Origin: Thermodesulfobacterium commune DSM 2178
Lineage (GTDB): Bacteria; Desulfobacterota; Thermodesulfobacteria; Thermodesulfobacteriales; Thermodesulfobacteriaceae
DNA length: 32,000 nt
Reading direction: 5' to 3'
NCBI RefSeq assembly: GCF_000734015.1
Contig: NZ_CP008796.1
Coordinates: forward strand, 1,170,001 to 1,202,000
Below are positions 26,198 through 32,000 of this stretch, piece after piece. The stretch's first letter is position 1, and each line of letters starts with the position of its first letter. A program made the translations under genes and the position numbers. The notes beneath the pieces were generated by a model. That model saw nothing but the letters and a program-made list of their open reading frames with translations, ran no database searches and had not been told where the DNA came from.

Positions 26198-26992
26198 CTA
26201 GCTTAAATTAATATTATATTTATTATCTAAGTTACCGAAAAGTTTTTTCTCAACAAAAAGATAAATTTCTTTTCTTGGAAAGTCTGGTTGGAAAACTTTT
26301 ATATCTCTGAATCCAGCAAGCTTCAGGGCATTCTCTAAAGCTTTATGAGAAAATCTCAAAAAGTGATGAGGTGGATAGTCAATCAAGGAGTCTTTCCTGA
26401 TTAAAATCTCTGCAAAAAAACTCTCCCTATTTGGCACACTTCCACCTATATATCCACCTTCGTTTAAAAGCTCCCTAACCATCCTCAGAAACTCCATAGG
26501 TCTGTCCTGATGCTCAAGGACTTCAAAGAAGGTAATAACATCAAACTTAAGGTTTCTCTCTCTGGCAAAGTGATAAAACTCTTCTAAGCTCATGGCATAA
26601 ACAGTGTCCACCCCAAGATTTCTTTTTACAGCCTCCACGCTTTTTCTGTCAAAGTCTATACCCTAGACTTCAAAGCCATGCCTTTGGGCTTCTTTTAGAA
26701 AAACTCCATCGCCACAGCCCACATCAAGGAGTTTGCCTTTTATGTGCTTGGGAATATGTTCAAAAAACATTCTGTGGTTCTCACCTATCCTTAATCTCGG
26801 TGCTTCATGAAAGGCAATATAGCTTTCAAATACCTCACTCTCATAAAACTCCGGGATTATCTACAACGGCTCCCACCAGTGAAGGTCGCAGATGGGACAC
26901 TCGTATTTTTTGTATTCCTGCCTGTTGTAAGGGCTCGTGTATGTCTCCGCGTGGGTTTCAACCGCTGTTTGACAGACTGGACAGCTTGGCAT
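26198..26992 (-). pseudogene. Zn-ribbon / class I SAM-dependent methyltransferase interrupted by two in-frame TAG codons
   Basis: One continuous frame runs from the ATG at 26992 (GGGGG RBS about 7 nt upstream) to the TAG at 26198-26200. It reads MPSCPVCQ...CPICDLHWWEPL*IIPEFYE...LLDVGCGDGVFLKEAQRHGFEV*GIDFDRKSVEAVK... and joins the 146-aa ORF-track product. The in-frame stops are at 26861-26863 and 26663-26665, checked as offsets of 129 and 327 nt from the start. There are no frameshifts. Confidence 0.8.
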
Positions 26993-27016: not shown

Positions 27017-27739
27017 CTAACCCTCAAGCAAGCTCTCAAGCTTTTCTATCACCTGCCCTAATATATCTTTCATCTTCAGATAGTTTTGGTAGACCTCCTC
27101 ATGGGATAACTCAAGGTATTCATGGGCAAGGACGTTGCGGAAAGCTTCCAGGCCTTTTAGCTTTTCAAAGAGGTCCTTGTCTATAATGCCTTTACCGTAA
27201 GCGTTTCTTATTATGTCTTCGTAGCTGTCGCTTACCACCTGAAACTTGCCTGCCAGTACGTGGTCAAGGATGTCAAGGATGCTTTCCGCTATGAGAAAAA
27301 GCAACCTTTCCACTGAGTAATGTAGCCACCTGCTTTTTGTGTAATCTTCAAAGCTCAGGTCTCCAAGGTCTAAAAGGTCTTTTCTGTACTCCTTTAACTT
27401 TCCCAACCTACTTATGAAGTATCCTTTGTTTATTCTTCTGTGTTTTTCAAGGTATAGGGCATAGTCGTAAAAGTTTTTCTTGGCTTTGAGTTCATAGTCG
27501 TTTAAGATGTCTGCATCCCTGTAGAAAAGCACCTTGCCGTATTTTATGACCTCAAACTGAAGCACAGGGTTAGCCCTGTTGAGCCACACAAGGTCAACCC
27601 TGTCAGACCTAAGGCTTGAAGTTAATTCTCCGTAAAGTTGATAGGAATCTTTCCAGCTAAAGTCCTTGGTGGTGTAGAAGGCTAAATCATGAGGCATATT
27701 AATTGGTTTTGTCCCTTTCCACCTTTCTCTTACACCCAA
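27017..27739 (-). CDS. Single-ORF fusion: N-terminally shortened, motif-degenerate MNT (MntA-like nucleotidyltransferase) plus a complete HEPN/DUF86 (HepT-like) domain
   Basis: Residues 1 to about 100 resemble MntA (HDLAFYTTKDFSWKD, RVDLVWLNRANPVLQFEVIKYGKVLFYRD). Residues from about 105 to 240 resemble HepT, with AFRNVLAHEY (Rx4HxY) at nt 27116-27139. The TTG start is preceded by AGGAG at 7-nt spacing. The paralog at 29.7-31.4 kb shows the ancestral two-gene layout. Confidence 0.75.
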   Translation of the reverse strand: MGVRERWKGTKPINMPHDLAFYTTKDFSWKDSYQLYGELTSSLRSDRVDLVWLNRANPVLQFEVIKYGKVLFYRDADILNDYELKAKKNFYDYALYLEKHRRINKGYFISRLGKLKEYRKDLLDLGDLSFEDYTKSRWLHYSVERLLFLIAESILDILDHVLAGKFQVVSDSYEDIIRNAYGKGIIDKDLFEKLKGLEAFRNVLAHEYLELSHEEVYQNYLKMKDILGQVIEKLESLLEG

Positions 27740-27761
27740 GGCTTAACTCCTCTTGTTGAGG

Positions 27762-27790
27762 ATTATACCAGAAAAACTATAAAGTGTAAA
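27762..27790 (-). promoter_or_regulatory. Near-consensus sigma70-type promoter for the MNT-HEPN fusion
   Basis: Minus strand: TTTACA (27790-27785), 17 nt ending in TGG, then TATAAT (27767-27762), about 22 nt upstream of the TTG start. A homologous promoter lies at 31375-31403. Confidence 0.5.
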
Positions 27791-27890
27791 GAACAACTCA
27801 CACCAATAGATACCAGATTAAAGGCCTTGAGAACCTTCTTAAAAGACACAAAAACTACCTTTGTCTTCTTCCCAAATTTAGCGTTTCTAC

Positions 27891-29685: not shown

Positions 29686-29698
29686 AGAAAATGTCTAA

Positions 29699-29930
29699 TG
29701 TAATCCTCAAAGCTCAGGTCTCCTAATTCCAAAAGGTCTCTTCGGTATTCTTTAAGCTTTTCTAACCTTCTTAGAATACTTTCCTTTCTATAGACCATCC
29801 CTGCTTGCCCTTCTATGCTTTTCAAGGTATATGACGTAATCATAGTAGTCCTTCCAGCTAAAATCTTTAGTGGTGTAAATGGCTAAAACAAGATCGGAAT
29901 CTTTAATACTTTTGCCTTTGGTTAAAGAAC
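29699..29930 (-). pseudogene. Copy 2 of mntA (3' part, with an internal deletion of about 60 codons) plus the first ~33 codons of hepT
   Basis: Reads ...TKGKSIKDSDLVLAIYTTKDFSWKD|YYDYVIYLEKHRRASRDGL* with the stop at 29788-29790. The overlapping hepT ATG at 29798 gives MVYRKESILRRLEKLKEYRRDLLELGDLSFEDY. Homology to copy 1 ends near 29699. Confidence 0.75.
29923..29930. repeat. Target-site duplication, left copy (TAAAGAAC)
   Basis: An identical 8-mer lies at 31270-31277, and the two directly flank the IS. Confidence 0.8.
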
Positions 29931-31269
29931 GGGAGTAGAATATAAATTGTGTCTTTTAATAAAATATTTTAGAGGCATAATAAAAATTTTTAATATTTTT
30001 TAAATTAATGATAACATAAAACCTAAAAGACTAAACTAACCAGGAGGTCTGTAAAATGGAAAACTTAGACTTAGATTTAGAAAAAGTTTTAAGTGAAATC
30101 TCAAAAATTGAATCAAAAGAGGGTATCAAAATGGCTGCTGCACTCCTCTTAAACGCTCTCATGAAAAAAGAAAGAGAAATATTCCTTAGAGATAGTATTG
30201 ATAATAAAGCTAATGGTTACTATGAAAGACAACTTGCCTGTTTCTTAGGTAACCTTGGTATCTCTGTCCCAAGAGATAGAAAATCTGAATTCAGACCTGC
30301 TATTCTTCCTCCTGAATGGCAAAAAGCTGATGAATCCTTCCAGGACTTTATCCTTAACCTCGTTCTCCAAAGCTACTCCCCCAATAAAATCAAAGCCCTC
30401 TTGCAATCTATGAAACTCCCCTACTCCCCAGAACAAATAGAAGAAATTAAAGAAGAATTGTATAACCAAGCCAAAGAATTAAAAACCAAAGAATTGCCAG
30501 AAAATTTGTTTGCTATGTTTATAGACGCTTATCATACTCAGATAAAAGATACCGAAGCCAACAGAATCAGAAAAGCAGTTATTTATAATATCATCGGGAT
30601 AGATATGGAGGGAAGAAAAAATTTACTTTCTTATTACATTTATTTTGGTTCAGAGACGAAGGAGGACTGGCTCCAGATACTTAATGATTTGATAAAGAGG
30701 GGAGTTAAGAGGGTTATGGTAATAGTGAGTGATGATTTTCCTGGCCTTACTCAAGCCATAAAAGCCCTCTTTCCTGAGACAGATCATCAGCTTTGTTTTG
30801 TACACATGCAAAGGAACATCAACAGGAACATGTCTAAGCAGGATGCTAAAAAATTTTATGAGGAGTTAAGCATTATAAAGAGGATAGAGGAGTATGAGAG
30901 GGCCTTAAATAGATTTGAGGAATTATGTAAGAGTTATGAGAAGAAGTATCCAGCTTATATAAAGGGACTTTTGAAAAAGAAGGAGCATTATTTTGTTTAT
31001 AAGAAATATCCTGAGGGGGTGAGGAGGTATATATACACGACGAATGTGGTTGAGAATATAAATAGCAGGATAGAGCTGATAAGGGTAAATACAGGGGGAT
31101 ATTTTCAATCAATCAAGACAGCAGAGGTTGCGATATACATAACAGTAAGTCGGATTCAGAAAACGAGATGGCAAAAACCACTTCCTTTAATTAAGTCTGC
31201 TTTATACGAATTGAGGCAAATGTTTGTAAAGAGATTTTATAAGGAGACACAATTCTCTTGACAAGTGTC
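29931..31269 (+). mobile_element. IS256-family insertion sequence (1339 bp) inserted in mntA copy 2
   Basis: A single Mutator-type transposase ORF is flanked by the perfect 8-bp direct repeat TAAAGAAC. The imperfect terminal inverted repeats share the core AATTGTGTCT and an inner T-ATAAAAT stretch: left GGGAGTAGAATATAAATTGTGTCTTTTAATAAAAT, and the right reverse complement GACACTTGTCAAGAGAATTGTGTCTCCTTATAAAAT. Deleting the IS and one repeat copy restores ...VFIAYIFGSLTKGKSIKDSDLVLAIY in frame. Confidence 0.85.
30056..31261 (+). CDS. IS256-family (Mutator-type) DDE transposase
   Basis: 401 aa with NGYYERQL and VPRDRKSEFRP N-terminal blocks. SDDFPGLTQAIKALFPETDHQLCFVHMQRN is a near match to the Mutator-family transposase signature. 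TTNVVENINSRIE block and AGGAGG RBS are present. Confidence 0.9.
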   Translation: MENLDLDLEKVLSEISKIESKEGIKMAAALLLNALMKKEREIFLRDSIDNKANGYYERQLACFLGNLGISVPRDRKSEFRPAILPPEWQKADESFQDFILNLVLQSYSPNKIKALLQSMKLPYSPEQIEEIKEELYNQAKELKTKELPENLFAMFIDAYHTQIKDTEANRIRKAVIYNIIGIDMEGRKNLLSYYIYFGSETKEDWLQILNDLIKRGVKRVMVIVSDDFPGLTQAIKALFPETDHQLCFVHMQRNINRNMSKQDAKKFYEELSIIKRIEEYERALNRFEELCKSYEKKYPAYIKGLLKKKEHYFVYKKYPEGVRRYIYTTNVVENINSRIELIRVNTGGYFQSIKTAEVAIYITVSRIQKTRWQKPLPLIKSALYELRQMFVKRFYKETQFS

Positions 31270-31277
31270 TAAAGAAC
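31270..31277. repeat. Target-site duplication, right copy (TAAAGAAC)
   Basis: See 29923-29930. Confidence 0.8.
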
Positions 31278-31356
31278 CAAAAATATAGGCAATAAAAACC
31301 TTAGAATTTTTTATTAGAGTTTCTTCTCATGTGCTTAACGCTAAATCAGGGAGCAT
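31270..31356 (-). pseudogene. Copy 2 of mntA, 5' part (start codon to IS insertion point), with an in-frame TGA at codon 10
   Basis: The ATG at 31356 is preceded by AAGGAG (31363-31368). It reads MLPDLALST*EETLIKNSKVFIAYIFGSL, with the TGA at 31327-31329. The G-S of the nucleotidyltransferase GSx(n)DxD motif lies at the insertion site. Confidence 0.7.
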
Positions 31357-31374
31357 ATTAGACTCCTTTTTCGT

Positions 31375-31403
31375 ATTATATACGAAAGACTGCAAAGAGT
31401 AAA
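31375..31403 (-). promoter_or_regulatory. Promoter of mntA/hepT copy 2 (paralog of 27762-27790)
   Basis: Minus strand: TTTACT (31403-31398), 17 nt, then TATAAT (31380-31375). The surrounding sequence gttctttac-ctttgcagtctttc-gtatataat aligns with copy 1 gttctttacactttatagtttttctggtataat. Confidence 0.45.
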
Positions 31404-31407
31404 GAAC

Positions 31408-31530
31408 TGCTCCTACCAGTGAAGGTTACAGACAGAGCATTTGTTTTTTGTATTTTTGCTGGTTGTGAAGGCTTTTATAGGTTTTGGCGTGAGTTGCTAC
31501 TTCAGTTTGACAAATAGGGCAACTGGGTGA
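31408..31530 (-). pseudogene. Fragment homologous to the first ~43 codons (Zn ribbon) of the 26198-26992 methyltransferase
   Basis: Reads SCPICQTEVATHAKTYKSLHNQQKYKK, then a 1-nt deletion, then KCSVCNLHW*EQ. The full gene reads SCPVCQTAVETHAETYTSPYNRQEYKKYECPICDLHWWEP. The start codon is lost, and TGG has become TAG at 31413-31415. Confidence 0.65.
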
Positions 31531-31595: not shown

Positions 31596-31997
31596 CTAAT
31601 CAAGCAATTCTGCTGGTGTTTTTCGTCCTTTTATCGTGTTATCAAAATCGCTATCAAAACTAACTATAGTAAGTCCATAATACTCAGAAAGAGCGTATTG
31701 ATATGCATCATCAAAATCAAGATTAAATTGTTGTGCATATTTTATAATTCGGTCAAATTCCCTAAATGGGAGAGTTATTAGTGTAGCTATACCTCCAATG
31801 ATAATATCGTCAAAAAACTTTTTAAATATCTCGTGTTGTCTTCTGCGAAACAGTAATATCCCAATGGAATGAAGAGAAAAATCAGAAATAAAAAAATCAT
31901 ACTTATTTGTATTAGATAAAAGTAAAAGAGCCTCTTTAGATTTTTCTTATGATAATAAGATTTCGATAAAAATGTTAGTATCAAGTAAAAGTTTCAC
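31596..31997 (-). pseudogene. vapC: PIN-domain (VapC-like) ribonuclease gene with an in-frame TAA at codon 17
   Basis: Hand translation from the GTG at 31997 gives VKLLLDTNIFIEILLS*EKSKEALLLLSNTNKYDFFISDFSLHSIG...FNLDFDDAYQYALSEYYGLTIVSFDSDFDN...LLD*. The PIN acidic residues are present (DTN, D-A, FDSDF). The stop is at 31947-31949, and 31997-31598 = 399 nt is in frame. The start may lie off-window, and any vapB partner would be beyond 32000. Confidence 0.7.
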
Positions 31998-32000
31998 GAT

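What the first reader, a model, noticed from the sequence alone, without database searches (positions are those of the whole stretch)
27017..27790. MntA-HepT collapsed into one polypeptide: degenerate nucleotidyltransferase half fused to an intact-looking HEPN RNase half, with its own strong promoter
Seen in sequence: ORF 27017-27739 carries an MNT-like N-terminal half and a complete HEPN/DUF86 half with AFRNVLAHEY (Rx4HxY, nt 27116-27139) in one frame. It has an AGGAG RBS and a TTTACA-17-TATAAT promoter with TG extension. The paralog at 29.7-31.4 kb keeps the usual two genes, with the mntA stop at 29788-29790 and the hepT ATG at 29798 overlapping. Aligning the two copies, 25 nt in copy 2 between the conserved CA(T/C)AGA and the K(E/G) codons correspond to 9 nt in copy 1. 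That net 16-nt loss removes both the stop and the start and shifts the frame by one, giving an in-frame fusion. Copy 1 also lacks about 26 N-terminal codons. Where copy 2 reads FGS...DSD, copy 1 reads (L)GV...PHD. Established knowledge: in HepT/MntA (type VII) systems the MNT partner neutralises the HEPN toxin by AMPylating a tyrosine at the Rx4HxY motif, and this needs the GSx(n)DxD nucleotidyltransferase motif. Inference: the toxin active site looks preserved, while the enzymatic neutralisation looks lost and is replaced by a covalent tether. This is either a TA module caught mid-decay or a cis-inhibited single-chain HEPN RNase, an architecture I do not recognise as described. Its position between the flippase and the sugar-synthesis genes of a surface-polysaccharide operon is also unusual.
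Basis: partly seen in the sequence, partly recalled or inferred. Interest (0 to 1): 0.72.

Follow-up and report, generated by a model that had tools for sequence, protein, structure and literature searches.

The report
Fused, catalytically gutted MntA-HepT remnant
A toxin-antitoxin gene pair in Thermodesulfobacterium commune has been welded into one gene by two small deletions that also removed the antitoxin's enzyme centre; fused versions of this pair are already known and common, so this is a mildly interesting natural variant, not a new kind of system.

Summary
The ORF is real: 27017-27739, minus strand, 240 aa. It carries an MntA-like half, an intact-looking HepT/HEPN half (RNVLAHEY) and a near-consensus promoter. 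The same protein occurs in several independent assemblies, so it is not an assembly error.

- The N-terminus is not truncated or degenerate. 'GVRERWKGTKPINMP' is the native MntA N-terminus. A clean in-frame 111-nt deletion between TGATTTAG repeats removed helix 1, strand 1, GS, DxD and half of strand 2.
- Copy 2 is not an intact two-gene pair. It has a nonsense codon, an IS256-family insertion, a 189-nt deletion and a truncated hepT.
- The promoter is the ancestral operon promoter.

A syntenic relative (L003) keeps two genes. It shows the fusion is a 16-nt deletion at AAAGA microhomology.

The architecture is not new. About 40 of the top 150 cluster representatives are single-chain MNT-HEPN proteins. 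Fused 'FhepTA' was characterised in 2026, and its engineered NTase-less truncation is non-toxic because the tethered MNT remnant blocks HEPN dimerisation.

Best reading: a tether-silenced TA module in reductive evolution (dN/dS about 0.39). Interest is low to moderate.

The parts
27762..27790 (-). Sigma-70-type promoter TTTACA-17-TGgTATAAT. It is the ancestral mntA-hepT operon promoter.
   Evidence: 11 of 12 matches, TG extension. The same element lies upstream of the two-gene operon in L003 and of copy 2 at 31375-31403.
27747..27752 (-). GAGGAG ribosome-binding site, 7 nt upstream of the TTG start.
   Evidence: Read. The region is identical in L001.
27017..27739 (-). Fused ORF of 240 aa (WP_156095567.1; also annotated from Met15 as the 226-aa WP_051754541.1).
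27689..27739 (-). Native MntA N-terminus (LGVRERWKGTKPINMPH), not a degenerate GS motif.
   Evidence: Alignment with intact MntA proteins P0006, P0020-P0027 and P0039.
27682..27689 (-). Scar of the 111-nt in-frame deletion: the single surviving copy of the TGATTTAG direct repeat. The deletion removed helix 1, strand 1, GS, DxD and half of strand 2.
   Evidence: DNA alignment A1 against L003. Secondary structure taken from the AF2 control model of intact MntA.
27434..27688 (-). MNT remnant (half of strand 2, helix 2, strand 3, helix 3, strand 4, helix 4), aa 18-102.
   Evidence: profile positions 28-101 of 106. AF2 pLDDT is 34-66 with no strands predicted, against 88 for the intact MntA control.
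27416..27433 (-). Fusion junction/linker (INKGYF). The 16-nt deletion scar lies between 27428 and 27427. It removed the mntA stop and the hepT ATG, which overlapped the mntA 3' end.
   Evidence: columns 621-636, AAAGA microhomology in L003. The junction peptide differs in L001 and L017, where it reads ISKENL.
27020..27415 (-). HepT/HEPN domain, aa 109-240, with a full-length C-terminal helix.
   Evidence: AF2 pLDDT about 90. Foldseek to A. flos-aquae HEPN toxin 7AE9/7AE6: TM 0.85-0.89 normalised to target, rmsd 1.5-1.8 A.
27116..27139 (-). Rx4HxY motif RNVLAHEY (R201, H206, Y208).
27146..27148 (-). Glu198 in 'GLEAFRN'. This position is Gly in every other close-subfamily HepT row of alignment A2, and it is variable in distant fused relatives.
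31270..31403 (-). Copy 2, 5' part: promoter (31403-31375), ATG at 31356, an in-frame TGA nonsense codon, then ...VFIAYIFGSL up to the IS.
29931..31269 (+). IS256-family insertion sequence (1339 bp; Transposase_mut ORF 30056-31261) inserted at the GS codons of copy-2 mntA. 8-bp target duplication GTTCTTTA at 31277-31270 and 29930-29923.
29690..29930 (-). Copy 2, 3' part: mntA remainder with a 189-nt in-frame deletion between YYD repeats, stop at 29790-29788, and a hepT fragment (ATG 29798) cut off after ...SFEDYI.

Best explanation
The ORF is a recent single-chain derivative of the mntA-hepT (type VII toxin-antitoxin) operon. That operon normally sits between the MurJ-like flippase gene and the Zn-ribbon methyltransferase gene in this group of Thermodesulfobacterium.

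SHOWN
Two microhomology-mediated deletions made the ORF.
- A 16-nt deletion removed the mntA stop and the hepT start and joined the two frames.
- A 111-nt in-frame deletion between TGATTTAG repeats excised helix 1, strand 1, the GS motif, the DxD motif and half of strand 2.
The product therefore cannot AMPylate anything. The HEPN half keeps R-x4-H-x-Y, the acceptor Tyr and its full-length fold.

INFERRED
- The RNase is kept silent by the covalently attached MNT remnant (helix 2 to helix 4), which prevents the HEPN dimerisation needed for activity. This is by analogy with FhepTA experiments, not by AMPylation.
- The likely order of events was fusion first, which makes AMPylation dispensable, and then loss of the NTase core.
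- The module is in reductive evolution. It is a disarmed or locked toxin under relaxed but not absent constraint, not a newly evolved system.
For: ANATOMY
- (alignment against the syntenic two-gene locus L003).
- Both deletions are shared by three diverged alleles: the window, L001/L002 and L017-L019.

NTase CORE GONE
-.
- AF2 gives the MNT remnant pLDDT 34-66 with no strands. The intact MntA P0006 gives pLDDT 88 with a comparably shallow alignment.

HEPN INTACT
-.

MECHANISM PRECEDENT (Yao et al. 2026, PMC13000451)
- Natural fused and two-gene forms differ mainly at the junction.
- D41E/D43E and Y240F mutants of fused FhepTA are non-toxic.
- Deleting residues 1-53 (helix 1, strands 1 and 2, GS-x10-DxD) is still non-toxic.
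- About 50 aa of tethered MNT abolishes HEPN dimerisation.
- The part retained in that truncation (helix 2, strand 3, helix 3, strand 4, helix 4) is the part retained here.

FUSIONS ARE RECURRENT AND VIABLE
- P0003, P0005, P0040, P0041 and about 35 more distant clusters.

RELAXED BUT NON-NEUTRAL EVOLUTION
- Window versus L017: 13 synonymous and 21 nonsynonymous changes, dN/dS 0.39, one-sided binomial p=0.011 against neutrality.
- For comparison, dN/dS is about 0.04-0.05 across deeply diverged HepT alleles.

DECAY IN THE NEIGHBOURHOOD
- Copy 2 is a wreck.
- The downstream methyltransferase is fragmented here but is an intact 328 aa in L001.
- The L003-type hepT carries a 1-nt deletion that truncates its C-terminus.
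Against: - No expression, oligomer-state or toxicity data exist for this protein. The tether mechanism is transferred from a distant Shewanella homologue.
- FhepTA residues 83-276 showed slight toxicity and the remnants were proteolytically unstable, so a poorly folded remnant could release free HEPN.
- The G198E change, three residues before the catalytic Arg, sits at a position that is Gly in every other close-subfamily HepT. It could mean the RNase is already dead, in which case no silencing is needed.
- The dN/dS test rests on 34 substitutions and ignores transition bias.
- The order of the two deletions cannot be resolved, because every fused allele found has both.
Confidence: 0.55

Rival explanations
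1. Plain pseudogene. The fused ORF is a dead remnant. Either the HEPN half was already inactivated (for example by G198E) or the misfolded product is degraded. The open frame and the promoter persist only because too little time has passed.
For: - The NTase core is deleted and the MNT remnant is predicted to be disordered.
- G198E sits at a position that is Gly in every other close-subfamily HepT.
- Nonsynonymous changes are elevated around the junction: codons 103-160 show 11 nonsynonymous and 5 synonymous changes.
- The MntA half shows only 3 synonymous and 4 nonsynonymous changes, which is not distinguishable from neutral.
- Copy 2 and the adjacent methyltransferase are pseudogenes.
- Sister alleles (L001, L003) carry a C-terminally truncated HepT.
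- T. hveragerdense has a hepT fragment fused to a glycosyltransferase (P0038).
Against: - The 240-codon frame is open in three diverged alleles.
- Both deletions preserve or restore the frame.
- Overall dN/dS is 0.39, p=0.011.
- Position -3 from the catalytic Arg is variable in distant active-looking relatives.
- The upstream promoter and RBS region is almost unchanged between alleles: identical in L001, one base different in L002.
Confidence: 0.28
2. An adaptive, AMPylation-independent single-chain toxin-antitoxin. The unstable MNT remnant acts as a protease-sensitive lock. Its degradation under stress or phage infection releases HEPN dimers, in the manner of fused CapRel-type systems.
For: - Rx4HxY and the HEPN fold are intact.
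- A strong promoter is conserved.
- There is some purifying selection.
- FhepTA is degraded from its N-terminus in vivo, and the authors propose proteolytic activation.
Against: - Only one narrow clade carries this form.
- The two other apparently NTase-less fused hits were a mis-called start and an in-frame stop.
- Constraint is relaxed relative to canonical HepT.
- The neighbourhood is decaying.
- The L001-type allele has lost the HEPN C-terminal helix.
- No trigger is known.
Confidence: 0.12
3. The HEPN half is active but is AMPylated in trans by another MntA paralogue encoded elsewhere in the genome.
For: - The acceptor Tyr208 is retained.
[quoted passage not shown] That thermophile genomes often carry several is my own recollection, not tested here.
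Against: - No intact mntA lies in the 32-kb window.
- FhepTA could not be AMPylated intermolecularly even by its own MNT domain.
- The rest of the genome was not available to search.
Confidence: 0.04
4. Assembly or sequencing artefact at the junction or at the N-terminal deletion.
For: None found.
Against: The same junction and the same deletion appear in independent NCBI, JGI and Logan assemblies, and in diverged alleles.
Confidence: 0.01

Closest known systems
FhepTA, the fused MNT-HEPN toxin-antitoxin of Shewanella (SO_1440; Yao et al., Nucleic Acids Res 2026, PMC13000451), and in particular its engineered truncation lacking residues 1-53
   Same: - N-terminal MNT and C-terminal HEPN in one chain, joined by a short linker.
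- Very close two-gene relatives that differ mainly at the junction.
- R-x4-H-x-Y retained.
- The truncation keeps helix 2, strand 3, helix 3, strand 4 and helix 4 and is non-toxic. That is the segment kept here.
   Different: - Natural FhepTA keeps GS-x10-DxD and AMPylates itself. Here the motif is deleted.
- FhepTA has two regulatory cysteines in its HEPN domain. This protein has no cysteine at all.
- FhepTA sits on a prophage or mobile island. This gene sits in a polysaccharide locus next to an IS.
- The fusions are independent events. This protein's nearest relatives are the local two-gene modules and other Thermodesulfobacterium-type sequences, not the Shewanella proteins.
Canonical type VII HepT/MntA (S. 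oneidensis SO_3165/3166, PDB 5YEP and 6M6U; A. flos-aquae HEPN/MNT, PDB 7AE2-7AE9)
   Same: - Both halves are homologous by profile.
- The HEPN model superposes on 7AE9/7AE6 at TM 0.85-0.89.
- The ancestral gene order, overlapping stop/start and promoter are visible in L003 and in copy 2.
   Different: - One gene instead of two.
- No NTase active site, so the defining AMPylation-based neutralisation is impossible in cis.
Widespread natural single-chain MNT-HEPN proteins of about 270-300 aa (for example P0040, P0041, P0056, P0059, P0060); 'DUF86 occasionally fused to MNT' in Anantharaman et al. 2013, PMC3710099
   Same: Same domain order and the same HEPN motif.
   Different: About 33 of the roughly 40 fused representatives seen keep GS...DxD. 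This one does not, and at 240 aa it is shorter.
Fused toxSAS CapRel(SJ46) versus two-gene FaRel2/ATfaRel2 (as discussed in PMC13000451)
   Same: A two-gene TA collapsed into one chain, with intramolecular inhibition.
   Different: Unrelated folds. A phage trigger is known for CapRel; none is known here.

Membership tests
[quoted passage not shown] | Separate mntA (upstream) and hepT (downstream) genes | tested here: not met
   A single 240-codon ORF. The stop and start were removed by a 16-nt deletion.
[quoted passage not shown] | MNT with the GS-x(n)-DxD nucleotidyltransferase motif | tested here: not met
   A 37-codon in-frame deletion removes GS and the first Asp of DxD. The NCBIfam MntA score is 45.8, below the cutoff of 60.
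[quoted passage not shown] | HEPN with R-x4-H and the adjacent acceptor Tyr | tested here: met
   RNVLAHEY at aa 201-208. NCBIfam HepT_toxin score 67.8, above the cutoff of 60.
[quoted passage not shown] | Toxin neutralised by oligoAMPylation of the Tyr | not testable with these tools
   Needs mass spectrometry. In cis it is impossible without the NTase motif.
FhepTA-type fused MNT-HEPN | N-terminal MNT and C-terminal HEPN in one polypeptide with a short linker, closely related to two-gene pairs | tested here: met
   The MntA-derived half is 78% identical to the intact L003 MntA, P0006.
FhepTA-type fused MNT-HEPN | Self-oligoAMPylation through an intact GS-x10-DxD | tested here: not met
   The motif is deleted.
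FhepTA-type fused MNT-HEPN | Redox switch through two cysteines in the HEPN domain | tested here: not met
   The 240-aa sequence contains no cysteine (read).
FhepTA-type fused MNT-HEPN | The MNT part blocks HEPN dimerisation, so the full-length protein is a non-toxic monomer | not testable with these tools
   Needs analytical ultracentrifugation or two-hybrid assays plus toxicity assays. Inferred only from PMC13000451.
FhepTA-type fused MNT-HEPN | Carried on a mobile genetic element | tested here: inconclusive
   It lies in a variable polysaccharide locus with an IS256-family element 2.2 kb away and recombination breakpoints inside hepT. No prophage or island was identified.
Unitary pseudogene / decayed TA remnant | Disrupted reading frame or premature stop | tested here: not met
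   The frame is open in the window and in L017. In L001 only the C-terminal 20 aa are lost.
Unitary pseudogene / decayed TA remnant | Neutral substitution pattern (dN/dS about 1) | tested here: inconclusive
   dN/dS 0.39, p=0.011 on 34 substitutions. Constraint is relaxed about 8-fold relative to the background of 0.04-0.05.

The most novel reading that the evidence does not exclude
This is a naturally selected single-chain HEPN toxin that no longer uses AMPylation. Its only lock is a tethered, poorly folded MNT stub that blocks dimerisation. Proteolysis of the stub, for example under stress or phage attack, would arm the RNase. That would be a natural end-point of the route from two-gene TA, to fused TA, to a protease-gated toxin, and the intermediate states would be preserved in sister genomes.
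Probability: 0.15. Interest if true: 0.5.

Novelty: new variant of a known kind. Interest (0 to 1): 0.3.

Why it matters
The locus would be a small but neat natural experiment. One clade preserves four states:
- the two-gene operon (L003);
- the fused, NTase-less gene (the window and L017);
- a fused allele that also lacks the HEPN C-terminus (L001);
- a fully wrecked paralogue (copy 2).

If the fused protein is non-toxic while its HEPN half alone is toxic, that would corroborate in nature the 2026 laboratory finding that a covalent MNT tether alone can silence a HepT RNase. It would also show how an enzyme-dependent antitoxin can become dispensable.

It also matters for annotation. RefSeq names this protein simply 'HepT family RNase toxin', and there is no intact antitoxin next to it.

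Tried and rejected
- A genome-contig scan with the 240-aa protein returned only Methanophagales and other archaeal relatives and no Thermodesulfobacterium locus. I therefore could not survey paralogous mntA genes in the host genome or count fused versus split states by species.
- PDB sequence search found nothing for the MNT half at E<=0.01.
- Two apparently NTase-less fused hits turned out not to be natural parallels. P0138 has a mis-called start with GS..DxD in frame upstream. P0058 has an in-frame stop between GS and DxD.
- The 59-aa ORFs next to the modules in the window and in L003 share a length but are not homologous. I dropped the duplication model built on them.
- dN/dS between the window and L001 was misleading for codons 161-212 (dS about 1.8). 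The 3' part of L001 is a recombinant identical to L003. I replaced it with the window versus L017 comparison.
- I looked for an internal in-frame start with an RBS that could make free HEPN from the fused mRNA. None is evident around codons 103-130 (read).
- I considered G198E as an inactivating change. It is not decidable, because the position is variable in distant relatives.
Full report
WHAT IS THERE

The minus strand carries a 240-codon ORF at 27017-27739. It starts with TTG. A GAGGAG site lies 7 nt upstream (27752-27747). A near-consensus promoter, TTTACA-17-TGgTATAAT, lies at 27790-27762 and matches 11 of 12 positions.

Profile searches support both halves.
- Pfam HepT-like covers aa 116-219 (E=3e-20) and Polbeta covers aa 18-76 (E=3e-8).
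- NCBIfam HepT_toxin scores 67.8, above its cutoff of 60.
- NCBIfam MntA_antitoxin scores 45.8, below its cutoff of 60. It covers only profile positions 28-101 of 106.

The protein is WP_156095567.1 of Thermodesulfobacterium commune, which RefSeq names 'type VII toxin-antitoxin system HepT family RNase toxin'. On a 1.76-Mb NCBI contig the same gene is called from Met15 as a 226-aa product.

The identical sequence appears in an NCBI draft genome, a JGI metagenome and several Logan SRA assemblies. An assembly error is excluded.

Intact MntA proteins of this subfamily begin MSVKERWK... or LGVRERWKGTKPIDMPPDL.... The window's 'LGVRERWKGTKPINMPH' is therefore the native N-terminus. It is not a degenerate 'FGS...DSD'.

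A syntenic metagenomic contig, L003, shows the likely ancestral arrangement. Its gene order is MurJ-like flippase, promoter, mntA (145 aa), hepT, then the Zn-ribbon methyltransferase.

Aligning the DNA shows two deletions in the window.
- A clean 111-nt (37-codon) in-frame deletion. It is bounded by the direct repeat C(C/T)TGATTTAG, of which one copy survives at 27689-27682.
It is bounded by AAAGA microhomology. It removes the mntA TAG and the hepT ATG that overlapped the mntA 3' end, and it joins the two frames.

An AF2 model of the intact MntA P0006 (pLDDT 88) assigns helix 1 to residues 17-30, strand 1 to 34-40 and strand 2 to 54-60. The 111-nt deletion therefore removes helix 1, strand 1, GS, the loop, the first Asp of DxD and half of strand 2. 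It leaves helix 2, strand 3, helix 3, strand 4 and helix 4.

With an alignment of the same family, the fused protein's MNT part is predicted poorly (pLDDT 34-66, no strands). The HEPN part is predicted confidently (about 90). The HEPN part superposes on the A. flos-aquae HEPN toxin at TM 0.85-0.89.

The promoter is not the fusion's own. The same element precedes the two-gene operon in L003 and precedes copy 2 at 31403-31375.

COPY 2

Copy 2 does retain the overlapping TAG (29790-29788) and ATG (29798-29796). It is otherwise a wreck.
- It has an in-frame TGA nonsense codon near the 5' end.
- A 1339-bp IS256-family element (29931-31269; Transposase_mut) is inserted exactly at the GS codons. It has an 8-bp target duplication, GTTCTTTA.
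- It has a 189-nt in-frame deletion between YYD-coding repeats.
- Its hepT is cut off after ...SFEDYI.

HOW OLD AND HOW CONSTRAINED IS THE FUSION

Both deletions are shared by three diverged alleles: the window; JGI contigs L001/L002 (protein P0002); and Logan contigs L017-L019 (protein P0189).

L001 is a mosaic. From about codon 161 onward it is identical to the L003 allele. That includes a 1-nt deletion which truncates the HEPN C-terminal helix. Recombination breakpoints therefore lie inside hepT.

The cleaner comparison is the window against L017.
- It gives 13 synonymous and 21 nonsynonymous changes, dN/dS 0.39 (NG86).
- A one-sided binomial test against a neutral expectation of 80% nonsynonymous gives p=0.011.
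- Nonsynonymous changes are densest around the junction and the first HEPN helix, with 11 in codons 103-160.
- Deeply diverged HepT alleles show dN/dS of about 0.04-0.05.

Constraint on the fused gene is therefore relaxed but apparently not absent. The sample is small, and the test ignores transition bias.

One substitution deserves mention. Glu198 in 'GLEAFRN' replaces a Gly that is present at this position in every other close-subfamily HepT. The position is variable in distant relatives.

IS THE ARCHITECTURE NEW? NO

An exhaustive phmmer search of 1.84 billion cluster representatives found 857 relatives.
- About 40 of the best 150 are single-chain MNT-HEPN proteins of 250-300 aa.
- About 33 of those keep both GS...DxD and R-x4-H-x-Y.

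Close relatives also include independently fused forms with intact NTase motifs: P0003, P0005 and P0040.

Anantharaman et al. 2013 already tabulated DUF86 HEPN as 'occasionally fused to MNT' (PMC3710099).

Yao et al. 2026 (PMC13000451) characterised fused 'FhepTA' in Shewanella.
- Fused and split forms can be more than 90% similar and differ mainly at the junction.
- The fused protein AMPylates itself.
- Abolishing AMPylation (D41E/D43E or Y240F) does not make it toxic.
- Deleting residues 1-53 (helix 1, strands 1 and 2, GS-x10-DxD) is still non-toxic.
- A tethered MNT fragment of about 50 aa is enough to prevent HEPN dimerisation.

The segment kept in that engineered truncation is the segment kept in the T. 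commune protein.

MOST LIKELY MECHANISM

Shown:
- The product cannot be a nucleotidyltransferase.
- Its HEPN half looks intact.
- It derives from the local two-gene operon by two microhomology deletions.

Inferred:
- The RNase is held inactive by the covalent MNT stub through a block on dimerisation.
- Fusion probably came first and made AMPylation dispensable. The NTase core was then lost.

The surrounding decay makes reductive evolution of a disarmed TA module the most economical reading.
- Copy 2 is a wreck.
- The methyltransferase is fragmented here but is an intact 328 aa in L001.
- The L003-type hepT is truncated.
- T. hveragerdense has a hepT-glycosyltransferase chimera (P0038).

Rivals:
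- A plain pseudogene in which HEPN is already dead.
- An adaptive protease-gated single-chain toxin.
- Trans-AMPylation by a paralogue. This is unlikely, because FhepTA is not modified intermolecularly.
- An artefact. This is refuted.

POSITION IN THE GENOME

The site between the flippase and the sugar-modification genes is the conserved home of this module in relatives (L001, L003, L017). The genes downstream differ between strains. The module therefore sits at a boundary of the variable part of the polysaccharide locus. This fits the recombination breakpoints seen within it.

VERDICT

The headline novelty, an undescribed single-chain architecture, does not hold.

What remains is a natural NTase-less variant of a known fused TA type. 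It is probably a tether-silenced remnant. Interest is about 0.3.

Noticed in passing
window 29931-31269 (IS); target duplications at 31270-31277 and 29923-29930: An IS256-family element (401-aa Transposase_mut ORF at 30056-31261, imperfect terminal inverted repeats) is inserted exactly at the GS-motif codons of the second mntA copy. It has an 8-bp target duplication, GTTCTTTA. Several public assemblies of this locus start about 150-250 nt upstream of the flippase gene, which could be a repeat-induced assembly break (not checked).
   Followed up: yes
window 26198-26992 (-): The Zn-ribbon/SAM-methyltransferase gene downstream of the fused ORF is fragmented here into a 43-aa Zn-ribbon ORF (26861-26992) and a 146-aa Methyltransf_23 fragment (26198-26638). 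The same gene is an intact 328-aa protein in L001/L002. It is probably a pseudogene in this genome.
   Followed up: partly
window 31420-31520 (-); L003 1938-2040; faintly at window 27795-27830: A degenerate copy of the methyltransferase's Zn-ribbon coding 5' end (...CPICDLHWWEPL-like) lies immediately upstream of each mntA promoter. A real copy follows hepT. The TA cassette seems to have been inserted into, or duplicated together with, the 5' end of that methyltransferase gene.
   Followed up: partly
L003 2509-2871; L001 about 2050; protein P0004: The hepT paired with an intact mntA in sister genomes carries a 1-nt deletion (GAGGA-GTT) that truncates the C-terminal helix, giving a 120-aa product that ends ...SHEEFTRII. 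Protein P0004, which carries this truncated C-terminus, is recorded on 18 contigs. The toxin may be decaying even where the antitoxin is intact.
   Followed up: partly
L001 codon about 161 of the fused gene onward; protein P0038: Recombination breakpoints fall inside hepT. The 3' part of L001 is identical to L003 while its 5' part is identical to L017. In T. hveragerdense, P0038 joins the first 73 aa of HepT to a glycosyltransferase C-terminus. The module appears to mark a boundary for exchange of polysaccharide gene cassettes.
   Followed up: partly
window 31640-32000 (-), running off the window end: A partial ORF begins '...LLDTNIFIEILLS...' and ends '...ISFDSDFD...'. It looks like a PIN-domain (VapC-like) toxin gene just upstream of copy 2. 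It was not run against profiles.
   Followed up: no
L011 2647-3191 (Methanophagales MAG JAGGZZ010000233.1); also L006-L010: The only genome-contig hits to the T. commune protein were archaeal, from ANME-1/Methanophagales and other Methanobacteriota and Halobacteria MAGs. L011 matches residues 41-228 in one segment at 49% identity, which suggests another fused form and a cross-domain distribution of this subfamily.
   Followed up: no
protein P0147 (280 aa): One representative has the reverse domain order. The HEPN motif RNILVHAY is at residue 99 and GS...DVD is at residue 172.
   Followed up: no
window 27697 versus 27739: RefSeq holds two start calls for the same gene: TTG giving 240 aa, and the internal ATG at Met15 giving 226 aa. 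Homology to the MntA N-termini and the GAGGAG site favour the TTG.
   Followed up: yes
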